64,000 nucleotides of DNA from Escherichia coli. GTDB taxonomy: Bacteria; Pseudomonadota; Gammaproteobacteria; Enterobacterales; Enterobacteriaceae. Each line of letters begins with the position of its first letter. Position 1 is the first letter of the stretch. The stretch lies in NCBI RefSeq assembly GCF_044324785.1, contig NZ_CP172127.1; one strand, 5' to 3'. Shown one piece after another: positions 4,484 to 33,477 of this stretch. The notes under the pieces were generated by a model. The model worked only from the letters and a program-made list of their open reading frames with translations. It was not told the DNA's origin and did no database searches. A program made the translations under genes and the position numbers.

Positions 4484-5692
4484 CGTCCGCGAAATTACCG
4501 ACGCAATTACGCAGGCAATCAATAAACCGGGGAGTAGCTGATACTCCCCGGTCATTTCACATATCATCAACGTCGACATAATCGGCGCGTGCGTGGTTGC
4601 CGCCAACAGTGTCGCCATCCCGGTCAATCCTAGTAAAAGCGTAATTTCTTCCCCGTCAGGGAACCATAATCCCAGGCTACGACCATACAACATGCCAATG
4701 GCAAGACCGATAAATAGTGTCGGTGTAAAGACACCACCGGGCGCGCCAGAACCACTACTCGCCAGCACGGCAAACAGTTTACAGAGGAAGATCCCGGCAA
4801 TGATCATTAACAGTGGCGGGGCGGTTAAAAAGGATTGTACGGTGCTATAGCCGTTGCCCCACACTGCAGGTGTGACCAGGGAAAGCTGACCCACGATTAA
4901 GCCGCCCAGTGCCAGTTGCCAGGGCGGCGCAAGTTTGAGACTTACAAATCCACGATGACAGGCGTTCATTAACGTTAACAACAGTGGTCCGCACAGACCT
5001 GCCAGCACACCTGTACTGATAATCAGCGCATAGTCACGAGCCTGAACCGTCACTGAGAGTTGTACGCTGTAGAGTAACGCGTCGCTATGATTAATCAGAT
5101 TGCTAACCAGCAACGCCACGACGGCGGAAATAATCACCGGGCCGAGAGAGGCCAACATCATAGTGCCAAACAGCACTTCGGCTATAAATAAACTGCCAGC
5201 AAGCGGGGCGCGATAGGCCGCAGCCATTCCCGCCGCAGCTCCACAGGCGATCCATAATTTACACTCCTGGCGTGGCGTAAAACGTTGGGCAAAACAGGAG
5301 GCGGCAAGGGCAGCTAAAAGAATCATCGCACCTTCGCGACCAATTGCACTGCCGCTGGTTACTACCAGCAGCGAGGCAAGGGATTTAACCAGGCTTGCTG
5401 CGTAATCAAACTGCCCATCGGTTTGCAACGCTTCCATGTAATCGGTCGGCGCATGAGGGCGTTGCTGGGTAAATTTCTGCCAGCCCATCAACAACAAACC
5501 CGCCGCCAGTCCGCCGAGCGCCGGAGTTAGCAGCCGTCGCCACGGGGAAAGATTTGTCGCTGCATTGACCAGACTGCCGGAGTCATTATTGAGGAACAAC
5601 CACTCCAGTAGCAGCATTGCATGACGAAACCCGGCAACGGCAAAGGCCGCAAGAATACCGACGACTGTTGCGATAAGCAGACGGCGGAACAT
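4436..5692 (-). CDS. clcB: ClC-family voltage-gated chloride channel
   Basis: Polytopic membrane protein with GSGAPGGVF-type ClC motifs; start placed at MFRRLL within the longer ORF. Confidence 0.85.
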
Positions 5693-27210: not shown

Positions 27211-27554
27211 AAAAAACGATAAAACCCACTGGATTATTTTTATGAAAGAGGCATCCAGTGAGTAGATTCGTAAGGTTACAGATACGTATATCTGAATAAT
27301 TAAATTCAGTTCTGTAAATAAAACTTAATCCTTAACCGGATGGATTTCTGCACCCTCAGAACATCAGGAGGCCGCCCGAAAGGGCGGTAGTGAAATGCGA
27401 AAGTTCAAAATTATTATTGAAACGGGAATAGCTGGTGGAGATTTTGAGGATGTATTCGAAGTGGACGATGACGCAACACCTGATGAAATTCATGACGGAG
27501 CATAAGAAATTTTCTTTAACTACTGCAATTACTCATACCACGAAATAAAAGACG

Positions 27555-28030
27555 ATGAGGAAGAACAAAGTGGCTGATTTTTGTTCAGCTAAATATAACA
27601 TCAGTTTTGAAGAGCGGGATGAACTATTAATGGACTATGGTGAGTTACGCGGTGGAAGTGCTGCTGATGTCGAATCCTAGCGTGATGACTATGAAGCGGG
27701 AAAAACTCCGGTCGAAGCATATTGTGAGGAGTGGGGCGATGAATGAGCGAGATTAATTATCAGGAAGGGCATGAAACGGCGGGGCAAGCAAAACCAGTGA
27801 CATGGCGATATCGCTACGTGAAAAAAGGCGTTACGGACTTTCAGGGGAAGTAGTGGTCTGGTGACTGGAAATATGTACCGAAAAAAGAGGATTGTAACGA
27901 CAGGCCGAACTATCAAATTCAGGCCTTATTCACTGCCTCACCAGTCCCGGTTACATCAGAAGAATTGGTTAAAGCTGTGCACTTTTATGAACAACTAAAA
28001 CGCGAAAATCCACCAACATCCGGCAACTAG
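27555..28030 (+). pseudogene. two translationally coupled small ORFs, each interrupted by one in-frame TAG
   Basis: Frame-0 ORF 27555-27746 has TAG at 27678; overlapping frame-2 ORF 27743-28030 (MSEINYQEGHE...) has TAG at 27851. Confidence 0.35.
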
Positions 28031-28284
28031 ATTAATGGGTTAACTATGTCGGTTAAACGACCAGCCAACTGAAAAAGCGGAAACCTGATTACAGGTTGCC
28101 AGATAAGGCAATGAGCTACCTGGCGCGGAACGGACTGATAAGTATGGGGAATGTTTTACGATGAACCTTTAGACTAAAGAGTTTGTAACGCTATGTAAGT
28201 GATTTTTTCTGGTTTAGATATTTATATGTCCGGCCAAATTGAGGTGTGTTTAAATGTAATTGCACATTGATTGTAGGAGGAATA

Positions 28285-28464
28285 ATGAAAAACGCATTGC
28301 AGTTTTTGTTTGTTGCGTTCTGGTTGTTCGCATCATGTATGCCCATCATCTTCACAGCAAGGTATATGGAAAAAGTTGATGTTTTGATATTAATATTTGG
28401 ATATATAAATGCCCTTTTTTTAGGGGTGTTCATGGCGGTCATGTGCATTGAATACTGGCGGTAA
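28285..28464 (+). CDS. small two-helix membrane protein, unknown function
   Basis: 59 aa from MKNALQFLFVAFWLFASCMPIIF, preceded by AGGAGG Shine-Dalgarno. Confidence 0.45.
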   Translation: MKNALQFLFVAFWLFASCMPIIFTARYMEKVDVLILIFGYINALFLGVFMAVMCIEYWR

Positions 28465-29755
28465 ATACAGCGAACTCCATTGGTTTAGTTGGATATTTAC
28501 TGTGCTGGACAAAAACGGTTTGCGGGGAAATCTTAGTTAAGTAGAATGACTGCGGGTGCTTGAGGCTATCTGCCTCGGGCACGAACACCAACGGCAGGTA
28601 GAGAAAAGCCCCAGTTAACATTACGCGTCCTGCAAGACGCTTAACATTAATCTGAGGCCAATTTCATGCCAGACACATGTAGGTTAGCCTCTTACGTGCC
28701 GAAAGGCAAGGAGAAGCAGGCTATTGTTAACACCAAGCTGTAATGTCCCCTTTGAACCATTCTAAAATGTCCCCAGACAATTCTCTGGGGGATTTTTCAT
28801 GACCAAAGAAACTGTTACGATGAGTCATAAGGAACTCCACCGACTTCAGATTATTCAGGAGTCAATTAATCGACATATTACTCAGGAACAAGCTGCGGCA
28901 CGCATTGGCATTTCTATTCGGCAGGTTAAACGTCTGGTGCAACGGTATAGAAATGAAGGGCCTTCTGGTCTGGTTTCCCACCGACGTGGAAAGCGTCCTA
29001 ATAATTCCTTTTCTACTGAATTCAGAGCAACAGTAATTTTACTCCTCAAAGGCCGTTACGCTGATTTTGGACCTACGTTTGCGTGCGAAAAATTGCGCGA
29101 GATACACGGTTTATCTTTATCCGTTGAAACTCTCAGAAAGTGGATGATAGAAGAGGGGGGTATGGCGTGAACGCCGTCGTAAAATTGCCCGTATATATCA
29201 ACGCCGCATGCGACGACCATCTTACGGTGAACTGATCCAGATTGATGGCTCACCTCATGACTGGTTTGAAAATCGAGGCCCCAGATGTACACTGATCGTT
29301 TTCATTGATGATGCCACCAGTGCGTTGATGGCGTTGCGTTTTGTGCCTGCTGAAACAACCCGGGCTTACATGGAAACCCTCCGGGGTTACCTTAATGATC
29401 ATGGCGTACCGCTCGCTCTCTACTCTGATAGACACAGTATATTCAGGGTAAATAACCCAGAGCGGGAAGGTGAGCTGACCCAGTTCACTCGTGCGATAAA
29501 GACACTGGGCATCGAGCCAATCCATGCCAACAGCCCGCAGGCAAAAGGGCGGGTAGAGCGCGCCAATCAGACACTACAGGACAGGCTGGTCAAAGAAATG
29601 CGGCTTCAGAATATCAGTGATATTGAAACAGCAAATGCATGGTTGCCGACCTTTATTGAAGCCTATAACAACCGGTTCGCTACGTCGCCTCGTACTACTG
29701 ATAATGCTCATCTTGATGTGCACCATTCTGAAGAGGAACTGGGTTATATCTTCAG

Positions 29756-29764: not shown

Positions 29765-30821
29765 GGCTTTGTTGAATAAATCAGATTTCGGGTAAGTCTC
29801 CCCCGTAGCGGGTTGTGTTTTCAGGCAATACGCACGCTTTCAGGCATACCTGCTTTCGTCATTTTGTTCAGCGCTCGTACCAGGGCCATAGCCTCCGCAA
29901 CCTGACCATCGTAGTCACGCAGCGTCAGTGAACCCCCGAACAGCTGTTTTACCCGGTACATCGCCGTTTCCGCTATCGAGCGACGGTTGTAATCTGTTGT
30001 CCATTTCCACCGCGCATTACTCCCGGTCATTCGCTGATTAGCCACTGCACGGTTACGGTCTGCATATTCACCGGGCCAGTAACCCGCACCTTTTCGGGGA
30101 GGGATAAGCGCGCTGATTTTCTTACGCCGCAGTTCATCGTGACATAGCCGGGTATCGTAAGCGCCATCGGCGGCGGCTGACCTGATTTTCCGGTGGGTTT
30201 GCCGGATTAACCCGGGGAAGGCCTCTGAGTCCGTAACGTTGTTCAGCGACAGGTCAGCGCAGATGATTTCATGTGTTTTACTGTCAACGGCGAGATGCAG
30301 CTTACGCCAGATACGGCGGCGTTCCTGGCCATGCTTTTTGACTTTCCACTCGCCTTCACCGAAGACCTTCAGCCCGGTGGAATCAATTACCAGGTGTGCG
30401 ATTTCACCCCGGGTGGGCGTTTTGAAACTGACATTAACCGACTTTGCCCGCCTGCTGACACAGCTGTAATCCGGGCAGCGTAGCGGAACGTTCATCAGAG
30501 AAAAAATGGAATCAATAAAGCCCTGCGCAGCCCGCAGGGTCAGCCTGAATACGCGTTTAATGACCAGCACAGTAGTGATGGCAAGGTCAGAATAGCGCTG
30601 AGGTCTGCCTCGTGAAGAAGGTGTTGCTGACTCATACCAGGCCTGAATAGCTTCATCATCCAGCCAGAAAGTTATGGAGCCACGGTTGATGAGGGCTTTA
30701 TTGTAGGTGGGCCAGTTGGTGATTTTGAACTTTTGCTTTGCCACGGAACGGTCTGCGTTGTCGGGAAGATACGTGATCTGATCCTTCAACTCAGCAAAAG
30801 TTCGATTTATTCAACAAAGCC
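29765..30821 (-). mobile_element. IS903-group insertion sequence (IS5 family), 1057 bp
   Basis: Perfect 18-bp terminal inverted repeats GGCTTTGTTGAATAAATC, 1057-bp length and 9-bp duplication typical of IS903/IS102. Confidence 0.9.
29821..30744 (-). CDS. IS903-type DDE transposase
   Basis: ORF inside the IS with DDE residues and YREK-like signature; probable GTG start giving 307 aa. Confidence 0.85.
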   Translation of the reverse strand: MAKQKFKITNWPTYNKALINRGSITFWLDDEAIQAWYESATPSSRGRPQRYSDLAITTVLVIKRVFRLTLRAAQGFIDSIFSLMNVPLRCPDYSCVSRRAKSVNVSFKTPTRGEIAHLVIDSTGLKVFGEGEWKVKKHGQERRRIWRKLHLAVDSKTHEIICADLSLNNVTDSEAFPGLIRQTHRKIRSAAADGAYDTRLCHDELRRKKISALIPPRKGAGYWPGEYADRNRAVANQRMTGSNARWKWTTDYNRRSIAETAMYRVKQLFGGSLTLRDYDGQVAEAMALVRALNKMTKAGMPESVRIA

Positions 30822-33261: not shown

Positions 33262-33477
33262 GAGACCCGGCGGGGGAGAAATCCCTCGCCACCTCTGATG
33301 TGGCAGGCATCCTCAACGCACCCGCACTTAACCCGCTTCGGCGGGTTTTTGTTTTTATTTTCAACGCGTTTGAAGTTCTGGACGGTGCCGGAATAGAATC
33401 AAAAATACTTAAGTAGCGCGCAGGGATAAGAGGGATGGTCCCTTAAAGGGGAGAGCTAATTATCCGGAAGGATTCTG

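What the first reader, a model, noticed from the sequence alone, without database searches (positions are those of the whole stretch)
28246..28464. Orphan small two-helix membrane protein gene with strong ribosome-binding site
A 59-aa hydrophobic protein (MKNALQFLFVAFWLFASCMPIIF...) with an AGGAGG Shine-Dalgarno sits alone between the decayed region and the transposase remnant. Small membrane proteins at such prophage positions are often superinfection-exclusion or toxin-like factors, but I recognise no family.
Basis: inference. Interest (0 to 1): 0.45.

Follow-up and report, generated by a model that had tools for sequence, protein, structure and literature searches.

The report
Small prophage membrane protein beside hok
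The 59-residue open reading frame is a real, conserved gene for a small two-helix membrane protein carried as cargo just upstream of a hok/sok killer cassette in E. coli lambdoid prophages; it belongs to a tiny uncharacterised family and its function is still unknown.

Summary
An ATG ORF at 28285-28464 (+) encodes the quoted 59-aa protein, preceded by AGGAGG (28275-28280). The window is an E. coli Qin/Rac-type lambdoid prophage.

The ORF is very probably a genuine gene. A second E. coli version, "type B", sits in a Rac-prophage remnant of B2 strains such as CFT073 and NC101. It is 41% identical, aligns without gaps, and has the same length, start and stop. The substitution pattern fits purifying selection (dN/dS about 0.24; permutation 0/20,000). 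The overlapping minus-strand ORF that phage records annotate is broken in type B.

It is not quite "alone". Rfam finds a hok mRNA leader at 28554-28725, cut at the hok start codon by an insertion sequence (IS). In related phages the ORF sits about 260 nt upstream of an intact hok, and type B is also followed by a hok fragment. The ORF occupies a variable, AT-rich cargo slot in the nin region; a related Rac-like phage carries an unrelated gene there.

No family, fold or defence-system match was found, and RefSeq leaves both versions unannotated. Function is inferred only: a membrane hairpin with a conserved GxxxAxxxG/Asn face, most plausibly an accessory or exclusion-type factor. It is ordinary in kind and modest in interest.

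The parts
28285..28464 (+). Coding sequence of the 59-aa two-helix membrane protein ('type A'), stop codon included
   Evidence: ORF list and sequence. Gapless 60-codon alignment to paralog type B: identity 35/42/29 of 60 at codon positions 1/2/3, dN 0.47, dS 1.98, BLOSUM score 145 against 60.5+-17 in 20,000 permutations. Hydropathy and AF2 helices. The ORF is intact in all 82 related viral loci, although these were selected by protein match.
28275..28280 (+). Shine-Dalgarno AGGAGG, 4 nt before the ATG
   Evidence: Sequence. AGGAGG in 66 and AGGGGG in 15 of 82 related loci. The RNA fold of the leader is no more stable than shuffles (z 0.70), so no strong sequestration is predicted.
28165..28284 (+). 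AT-rich upstream leader of the cassette, homologous between the two paralogs. It contains the palindrome CTTTAGaCTAAAG (28167-28179) and a candidate extended -10, TGtTTAAAT (28247-28255).
   Evidence: Alignment A2 gives 74/145 identical columns with 16 gap columns, against 32+-7% identity for shuffled controls. The palindrome is CTTCAGtCTGAAG in type B, a change on both arms. TGcTTAACT sits at the matching place in type B. Both were read by eye and are inference only. The promoter scan found no sigma-70 site.
28096..28164 (+). Fossil of the last 23 codons of the upstream nin-region gene ('HP4' of the Rac-like phage), ending at TGA 28162-28164. It marks the left edge of the cargo slot.
   Evidence: tblastn of Rac phage HP4 residues 63-85 gives 57% identity, E 8e-6. 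The same gene end precedes an unrelated gene, HP5, in phage MN652886.
28554..28724 (+). hok mRNA 5' leader (Rfam 'sok' family model), with a truncated mok frame from 28666. The hok coding sequence is missing.
   Evidence: Rfam RF01794 scores 99.8 bits (gathering score 59), E 2.4e-22, full model 1-157. There is 91-93% DNA identity to hokW/mokW/sokW of 933W and Sakai phages starting at window ~28501-28511. Homology to phages with intact hok stops at 28724.
28725..28800 (+). Left end of the inserted ISEsa1-like (IS1202-family) element that cuts hok after the 'AT' of its start codon
   Evidence: BLAST break at query position 625 = window 28724 in all loci with intact hok. IAI1 annotation names the IS1202-like ISEsa1 family transposase. 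Compare the intact 'ggctATGaag' in the Rac phage.
28191..28448 (-). Overlapping 85-aa minus-strand ORF, judged spurious
   Evidence: Phage records annotate this strand as 'hornerin' or hypothetical. It has no SD, it is hydrophilic (GRAVY -0.37), and the same frame has five stop codons in the paralog.

Best explanation
The ORF at 28285-28464 is a genuine gene for a 59-residue inner-membrane protein made of two transmembrane helices joined by a short loop.

It is accessory ('moron-like') cargo in a variable, AT-rich slot of the nin region of Rac/Qin-type lambdoid prophages. The slot lies between the end of a small nin gene and the hok/sok killer cassette. The ORF points the same way as the early-right operon (dicC/cro to Q). 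I therefore infer that it is transcribed mainly with the delayed-early genes, possibly helped by a weak extended -10 promoter of its own.

The basic N-terminus (K2, or R2K3 in type B) and the neutral-to-acidic loop suggest an N-in/C-in hairpin. Conserved small and polar residues inside the helices (W13, S17, C18, P20, T24 in helix 1; G39, N42, A43, G47 in helix 2, a GxxxAxxxG zipper-like face) suggest tight helix packing or self-association.

My committed guess at function is that it acts at the inner membrane in phage-host conflict. The single most likely job is an Imm/gp15-style block to entry of competing phage DNA, or a related membrane-level effect that benefits the lysogen. It works independently of hok.

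Shown: the gene is real and conserved, its context, and the predicted two-helix shape. Inferred: topology, oligomerisation, timing of expression and function.
For: Real gene:
- ATG with AGGAGG.
- The only distant relative found among 1.84 billion representative proteins is a 59-aa E. coli paralog. It is 41% identical, gapless, and shares start and stop.
- Codon-position identity is 35/42/29 of 60; dN 0.47 against dS 1.98.
- In 20,000 permutations the BLOSUM score of 145 was never reached (simulated 60.5+-17), amino-acid identity gives p 0.008, and an open frame gives p 0.035.
- Indels occur only outside the ORF: 22 gap columns in 247 flank columns against 0 in 180.

Retention:
- In the window the upstream small genes carry stops or frameshifts, and hok is cut by an IS.
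- In the B2 remnant the ydaW and lygF neighbours are fragments with stops and hok is a fragment, yet the ORF is intact.

Membrane hairpin: hydropathy peaks and AF2 helices 2-26 and 28-58, pLDDT 77.

Cargo slot:
- GC is 0.335-0.375 against 0.44-0.50 in the flanks.
- An unrelated gene, HP5, occupies the same slot in Rac-like phage MN652886.
- hok cassettes of 933W-type phages start matching only after the ORF's stop.

Independence from hok: the ORF is intact where hok is destroyed (this window; type B). Also, 2919 genomes match the 501-nt query 28100-28600 spanning the ORF and its flanks, but only 1567 match the ORF-only query.
Against: There is no expression evidence of any kind.

Simple scans find no sigma-70 promoter and no terminator for the ORF, so it fails two classical moron criteria.

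Within type A the five variable sites in the ORF are all nonsynonymous, though conservative (A16V, V31I, I37M, Y40H, L44I). Recent evolution therefore shows no sign of purifying selection, although the counts are small.

The family is confined to E. coli and Shigella with only two divergent members, so the selection test rests on a single pairwise comparison with saturated dS.

No match to any exclusion, defence, toxin or holin family or fold. A 180-nt ORF could survive in remnants by luck. RefSeq PGAP annotates neither paralog.
Confidence: 0.55

Rival explanations
1. It is a membrane-damaging toxin in the manner of type I toxins or small holin-like proteins. When made, the hairpin oligomerises through its glycine-zipper face and dissipates membrane potential. 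It would serve abortive infection, post-segregational killing or lysis timing, next to a second killer, Hok.
For: It is a small, very hydrophobic protein (GRAVY 1.27). It has a conserved GxxxAxxxG plus Asn face. It sits next to hok/sok in two diverged lineages.
Against: No antisense RNA family lies over the ORF and there is no minus-strand promoter by scan. The leader RNA is not unusually structured and the SD is not clearly sequestered (z 0.70). There is no Hok or holin family match. The protein has two helices and no charged tail. It lies upstream of Q, outside the lysis cassette. An unguarded toxin with a near-perfect SD would be expected to decay in cryptic remnants, but it is the gene that stays intact.
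Confidence: 0.15
2. It is a small regulatory membrane protein that binds and modulates a host inner-membrane protein such as a transporter, sensor kinase or phage receptor component. Known small E. coli membrane proteins do this, and prophage DicB does it for ManYZ.
For: Conserved polar and small residues within both helices suggest a specific helix-helix partner. The intact gene is retained in a chromosomal remnant of all sampled B2 genomes with no other phage function left. There is a weak, sub-threshold resemblance to the small subunit of sodium/substrate symporters (TIGR03647, E 0.031, 14.5 bits against a cutoff of 26).
Against: The TIGR03647 hit is below threshold, seen only for type B, and probably compositional. 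No partner gene is linked to the ORF. Nothing here tests binding.
Confidence: 0.17
3. It is a non-functional leftover: an ORF that was once a phage gene, or never a gene, and persists by chance in T-rich DNA, which naturally translates into hydrophobic residues.
For: PGAP does not call it in any RefSeq genome listed. No promoter was found. Recent variation is all nonsynonymous. The taxonomic range is very narrow.
Against: The start, stop and length are conserved at 41% identity with no indels, while the flanks have indels. The permutation test for amino-acid similarity gives 0/20,000. An open frame is unlikely by composition, 1.6% and 0.6%. It has a strong SD.
Confidence: 0.1
4. The real gene is the 85-aa minus-strand ORF (28448..28191) annotated in phage records, or the plus-strand ORF is a fragment of a larger disrupted gene.
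For: Phage records PV340562 and ON470612 annotate the minus strand. A terminator-like hairpin on the minus strand lies at 28097..28082.
Against: The minus frame has five stops in the paralog, no SD, and a low-complexity hydrophilic product. No longer protein contains the 59-aa sequence except frameshift or contig-end artefacts.
Confidence: 0.03

Closest known systems
HK97 gp15 (moron-encoded inner-membrane superinfection-exclusion protein; YebO-like)
   Same: Both are small inner-membrane proteins carried as extra cargo in a lambdoid phage, with GC content different from the neighbours. The definition and function of gp15 are taken from PMC3594210.
   Different: There is no sequence or profile similarity. 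gp15 lies in the tail operon and, as a classical moron, has its own promoter and terminator and is expressed from the prophage. Here no promoter or terminator was found and expression is unknown. The topology of gp15 was not compared.
T4 Imm (small two-helix inner-membrane protein that blocks DNA entry; from my own knowledge)
   Same: Size class, two predicted membrane helices, and placement among early-transcribed phage genes.
   Different: No homology was detected. T4 is a virulent phage. The function of the ORF here is untested.
Hok and other type I toxins (hok/sok)
   Same: Both are small hydrophobic membrane proteins in prophages. The ORF is physically adjacent to a hok/sok cassette in both lineages of the family.
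   Different: The ORF lies outside the mobile hok cassette, whose homology starts after the ORF's stop. It is not homologous to Hok. It has two helices rather than one. No antisense RNA or locking mRNA fold was found. It survives where hok is destroyed.
Class II holins / pinholin S21 68 (two transmembrane domains, glycine-zipper pore face; from my own knowledge)
   Same: Two transmembrane helices and a G-x3-small-x3-G motif in helix 2.
   Different: The C-terminal tail is only EYWR, not charged. The ORF is not in the lysis cassette downstream of Q. There are no holin family hits.

Membership tests
Moron (independent accessory unit in lambdoid phages; definition in PMC3594210) | Appears as an addition or replacement relative to related phage genomes | tested here: met
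   The same slot between the HP4 gene end and hok holds an unrelated 87-aa gene, HP5, in Rac-like phage MN652886. 933W-type hok cassettes lack the ORF.
Moron (independent accessory unit in lambdoid phages; definition in PMC3594210) | [quoted passage not shown] | tested here: met
   GC is 0.335-0.375 over 28100-28499 against 0.44-0.50 in both flanks.
Moron (independent accessory unit in lambdoid phages; definition in PMC3594210) | Own promoter | tested here: inconclusive
   The consensus scan finds no sigma-70 site in 27700-28900, and none on the + strand upstream of type B. By eye, a TGnTTAA(A/C)T motif is shared by both paralogs ~35 nt before the ATG. This is inference only.
Moron (independent accessory unit in lambdoid phages; definition in PMC3594210) | Own terminator | tested here: not met
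   There is no terminator-like site between the stop (28464) and the hok leader. The fold of 28440-28560 is no better than shuffles, z -0.05.
Moron (independent accessory unit in lambdoid phages; definition in PMC3594210) | Expressed from the repressed prophage | not testable with these tools
   Needs RNA-seq, Ribo-seq or reporter data from a lysogen.
Type I toxin-antitoxin toxin | Small hydrophobic membrane protein | tested here: met
   59 aa, GRAVY 1.27, two hydrophobic peaks.
Type I toxin-antitoxin toxin | Cognate antisense or overlapping small RNA | tested here: not met
   The only Rfam hit near the ORF is the hok/sok leader downstream at 28554-28725. Nothing overlaps the ORF at E<=1. There is no minus-strand promoter by scan. 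A novel RNA cannot be excluded.
Type I toxin-antitoxin toxin | Highly structured mRNA that hides the ribosome-binding site | tested here: not met
   The leader fold is -23.6 kcal/mol against shuffles -26.1+-3.5, z 0.70.
Hok/Gef family and the hok/sok cassette | Homology to Hok, or location inside the mobile hok/mok/sok unit | tested here: not met
   No Pfam hit. Cassette homology in other phages begins at ~28501-28511, after the ORF's stop. The Rfam model starts at 28554.
Holin / pinholin (class II) | Two transmembrane domains plus a charged cytoplasmic C-terminal tail, encoded in the lysis cassette downstream of Q | tested here: not met
   Two helices are present, but the tail is only EYWR. 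The gene lies upstream of ydfU, rusA and Q in phage 640R1. No PHROG or Pfam holin hit.
Known superinfection-exclusion / anti-phage defence proteins (Imm, gp15/YebO, SieA, SieB; PADLOC set) | Sequence, profile or fold similarity to a described member | tested here: not met
   PADLOC, PHROGs, Pfam and NCBIfam give no hits. The best BFVD Foldseek E-value is 1.8.
Known superinfection-exclusion / anti-phage defence proteins (Imm, gp15/YebO, SieA, SieB; PADLOC set) | Exclusion phenotype against superinfecting phage | not testable with these tools
   Requires phage plating assays.

The most novel reading that the evidence does not exclude
The small hairpin protein is a prophage gene domesticated by E. 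coli. It has been kept intact in two independent cryptic remnants, including one fixed across phylogroup B2 pathogens such as CFT073 and NC101, because it gives the host a benefit at the inner membrane. That benefit could be a previously undescribed kind of entry block or membrane-potential gate. Alternatively, its recurring position beside hok/sok reflects a functional pairing with that cassette.
Probability: 0.1. Interest if true: 0.6.

Novelty: new member of a known kind. Interest (0 to 1): 0.3.

Why it matters
Small membrane proteins are systematically missed. RefSeq's pipeline annotates neither version of this one, although type A is present in 1567 (29%) and type B in 1043 (19%) of 5426 complete E. 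coli genomes.

If it proves to exclude phages or to alter membrane physiology, it would add a compact accessory function found in many commensal and pathogenic E. coli. It would also define a swappable cargo slot next to hok/sok in lambdoid prophages. If it does nothing measurable, it remains a well-documented example of a conserved but unannotated small gene.

Tried and rejected
- Family searches on both paralogs (Pfam, PHROGs, NCBIfam, PADLOC) gave nothing. The one exception is a sub-threshold TIGR03647 hit for type B (E 0.031), which I treat as compositional.
- The exhaustive HMMER search and a profile search found only the two E. coli/Shigella paralogs and their damaged variants.
- A scan of one genome per species (100,044 species) returned a single locus. 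It is a 100%-identical E. coli-like contig in a MAG labelled Collinsella, probably mis-binned.
- The AF2 model searched against viral structures gave no match with E<1. I did not run further fold searches because a 59-residue hairpin is not discriminating.
- Rfam shows nothing over the ORF. Promoter and terminator scans and RNA folds are not significant.
- I first read the Rfam and BLAST hits as a minus-strand hok overlapping the ORF. I rejected this because the Rfam 'sok' model is in the sense of the hok leader, so hok is on the + strand, downstream of the ORF.
- I suspected that the type B homologue came from another genus, such as an endosymbiont. I rejected this because its flanks are 98-99.8% E. 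coli.
- A regex search for hok failed and was replaced by tblastn.
- A literature search for the peptide and for related topics found no description of this protein.
- My recalled IS5 end sequence did not match. The ~1.06-kb insertion is therefore described only by comparison with IAI1.

Full report
**Where we are.** The window is E. coli chromosome. Bases 28100-28600 are 100% identical to IAI1 and many other strains. The IAI1 annotation shows a Qin/Rac-type lambdoid prophage. Its gene order is dicB, ydfA-C, dicA, dicC, a YdaT-family gene, a replication gene, DUF977, then several pseudogenes, an ISEsa1-like (IS1202-family) transposase remnant, ydfW, flxA, ydfV, relBE, hokD, rem, ydfU and the antiterminator. 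Relative to IAI1 the window carries an extra ~1.06-kb insertion at 29766-30821 inside the ISEsa1-like element.

**Observation.** The ORF listing gives a + strand ORF at 28246..28464, 72 aa from GTG. AGGAGG lies at 28275-28280, four bases upstream. An 85-aa ORF is open on the opposite strand at 28448..28191. That minus-strand ORF is the one annotated in phage records PV340562 ('hypothetical') and ON470612/ON470619 ('hornerin'). RefSeq's pipeline annotates neither strand in any genome listed.

**Which strand, and is it a gene?** The word-indexed protein search found only E. coli/Shigella proteins at least ~90% identical, plus frameshifted or truncated variants. The exhaustive HMMER search of 1.84 billion representatives added one distant relative, P0037. 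It is 59 aa, 41% identical and aligned 1-59 to 1-59.

Its DNA is also E. coli. It lies in phylogroup-B2-type strains (CFT073, NC101, ABU 83972, APEC O18), in a remnant of the Rac prophage. The order there is ttcA, an integrase fragment, a DUF1627 (ydaW) fragment, about 0.65 kb of unannotated DNA, the ORF, a metal-ABC-permease pseudogene, uspF and ompN. I call the window's version type A and this one type B.

Several results support a real + strand gene:
- The alignment of the two is gapless over 60 codons, with the same start and stop.
- Identity by codon position is 35, 42 and 29 of 60. Nei-Gojobori dN is 0.47 and dS 1.98 (saturated), a ratio of about 0.24.
- I redistributed the same 74 differences at random 20,000 times. 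The frame stayed open in 3.5% of trials. Amino-acid identity reached the observed 24 in 0.8%. The BLOSUM62 score (145 against 60.5+-17) was never reached.
- The flanks are homologous too: upstream 74/145 identical columns, against 32+-7% for shuffled controls. But they carry 22 gap columns in 247, and the ORF carries none in 180.
- The minus-strand frame has five stop codons in type B and encodes a hydrophilic, low-complexity product.
- In type B the upstream ATG is out of frame with the ORF (my reading of the sequence), so the conserved start is the ATG at 28285.

I conclude that the + strand 59-aa ORF is a real gene that has been under purifying selection, and that the minus-strand annotation is spurious. 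One caveat applies. Within type A, the five variable ORF sites among 25 haplotypes are all nonsynonymous, though conservative, and those loci had been picked by protein similarity.

**The protein.** Both paralogs have two hydrophobic peaks, at about residues 4-24 and 33-55. AlphaFold2 on the three-sequence alignment gives helices 2-26 and 28-58 with mean pLDDT 77. Invariant positions include W13, S17, C18, P20, I21, I22 and T24 in helix 1. In helix 2 they include F38, G39, N42, A43, L44, G47, V48 and F49, and the tail is I55-E56-x-W58-R59. Basic residues sit at the N-terminus, and the loop is neutral (type A) or acidic (type B). By the positive-inside rule this suggests both ends in the cytoplasm. 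That topology, and self-association through the G39-A43-G47/N42 face, are inferences.

**Context: not alone.** Rfam's hok/sok leader model matches 28554-28725 on the + strand at 99.8 bits against a gathering score of 59. The model runs in the sense of hok mRNA and ends at the hok ATG. In the window, homology to phages with intact hok stops at 28724, after the 'AT' of that ATG, where the ISEsa1-like element begins. The killer gene has therefore been cut off, leaving its leader and a truncated mok.

Among 82 related phage or viral loci, 51 have an intact hok starting 258-260 nt (270 in one damaged copy) after the ORF's end, and 29 lack it as the window does. In phage 640R1 the order is O, DUF977/LygF, four small genes, the ORF, hok, a rem-associated gene, ydfU, rusA and Q. 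This is the nin region, with all genes on the early-right strand. Type B is followed 55 nt later by a fragment of the hok coding sequence, 81% identical (E 6e-13) with an in-frame stop. The ORF-then-hok arrangement is therefore ancestral to both paralogs.

**The two are separable.**
- hok cassettes in 933W/Sakai-type phages match only from ~28501-28511 onward.
- 2919 genomes match the 501-nt query 28100-28600, which spans the ORF and its flanks, but only 1567 match the ORF-only query.
- A Rac-like phage carries an unrelated soluble 87-aa gene, HP5, in the same slot between the HP4 gene end and hok.
- The slot is AT-rich, GC 0.335-0.375 against 0.44-0.50 around it.
- In both remnants the ORF is intact although hok is destroyed.

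**Decay around it.** In the window the neighbouring small genes are damaged. The DUF7167 gene has an internal stop, the next gene has a stop, the next a frameshift, HP4 survives only as its last 23 codons, and the methyltransferase is frameshifted. In the B2 remnant only fragments of ydaW and lygF remain, with stops. The small ORF is the only intact phage-derived reading frame in either stretch. This hints at selection in the host, but for a 180-nt target it could be luck.

**Regulation.** No sigma-70 promoter or terminator was found by scan. The leader and the trailer do not fold better than shuffles. By eye, TGtTTAAAT (28247-28255) aligns with TGcTTAACT in type B. A 13-bp palindrome just after the HP4 stop (28167-28179) keeps its symmetry in type B through a change on both arms. 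These are leads, not findings.

**Comparison with known systems.** There are no matches in Pfam, PHROGs, NCBIfam or PADLOC, no viral fold match and no paper found.
- The ORF resembles a moron in being AT-rich swappable cargo, by the definition in PMC3594210, but it lacks a detectable promoter and terminator.
- It is not a Hok-family or type I toxin by the tests available.
- It is not a holin by position or by tail.
- Its closest functional analogues are small inner-membrane exclusion proteins such as HK97 gp15 and T4 Imm (my own knowledge).

**Verdict.** This is a real, unannotated, narrowly distributed small membrane-protein gene, a new member of a familiar kind. Its function is unproven, and I rate its interest as modest (0.3).

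Noticed in passing
window 28554-28743: There is a hok/sok locus remnant here. The full hok mRNA leader is present (Rfam RF01794, 99.8 bits), with a truncated mok frame from 28666. The hok coding sequence is removed by an IS insertion exactly after the 'AT' of its start codon (28724/28725). A likely hok promoter, TTGCGG-16 nt-TAGAAT at 28520-28547, lies just upstream; it was read by eye.
   Followed up: yes
window 28725-~31300, insertion 29766-30821: The ISEsa1-like (IS1202-family) element that cut hok is itself interrupted by a ~1.06-kb insertion absent from strain IAI1. The insertion encodes a 322-aa transposase-like ORF (29821..30789, minus strand). From memory it looks like the IS903 group; the family was not tested.
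   Followed up: partly
L084 829-1008; L088 (NC101) 4829-5008: A second family member, type B (41% identical, 59 aa), is present in 1043 of 5426 complete E. coli genomes, including CFT073, NC101 and ABU 83972. It lies in a Rac-prophage remnant between ttcA and uspF, is followed by a hok fragment, and is not annotated by RefSeq.
   Followed up: yes
window 28191-28448 (minus strand): GenBank phage records annotate the antisense ORF here ('hornerin' in ON470612 and ON470619, 'hypothetical protein' in PV340562). The paralog comparison shows this frame is not conserved.
   Followed up: yes
window 27395-28164: This is a run of decayed small nin-region genes. The DUF7167 gene has an internal stop, the next gene has a stop, the 640R1 h4514-like gene has a frameshift, and only the last 23 codons of an HP4-like gene remain. 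That HP4 fossil is also present in the apparently intact phage 640R1.
   Followed up: partly
window 28167-28179 and 28247-28255: The 13-bp palindrome CTTTAGaCTAAAG lies right after the HP4 stop codon. It is CTTCAGtCTGAAG in type B, so symmetry is kept by a change on both arms. In one MFE fold the preceding CCUUU pairs with the GGAGG of the SD. A shared TGnTTAA(A/C)T motif lies ~35 nt before the ATG. The meaning of both is unknown.
   Followed up: partly
window 28082-28097 (minus strand): A terminator-like hairpin, AACCTGTAATCAGGTT followed by a T-run, lies on the minus strand downstream of the antisense ORF. It is a weak site; 0.9 such sites are expected by chance in the scanned region.
   Followed up: no
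L089 3092-3355 (phage MN652886): In a Rac-like phage, the slot upstream of mok/hok holds an unrelated 87-aa soluble protein, HP5, with no Pfam match. This suggests a swappable cargo position next to hok/sok.
   Followed up: partly
window 33270-33351: There is a weak, sub-threshold Rfam match to isrK (25 bits against a gathering score of 50), downstream of the relBE-hokD region. It is probably just a terminator hairpin.
   Followed up: no
L087: The only hit among 100,044 species-representative genomes is a 5.5-kb contig, 100% identical at the protein level, in a MAG labelled Collinsella sp. This is probably a mis-binned E. coli contig.
   Followed up: no
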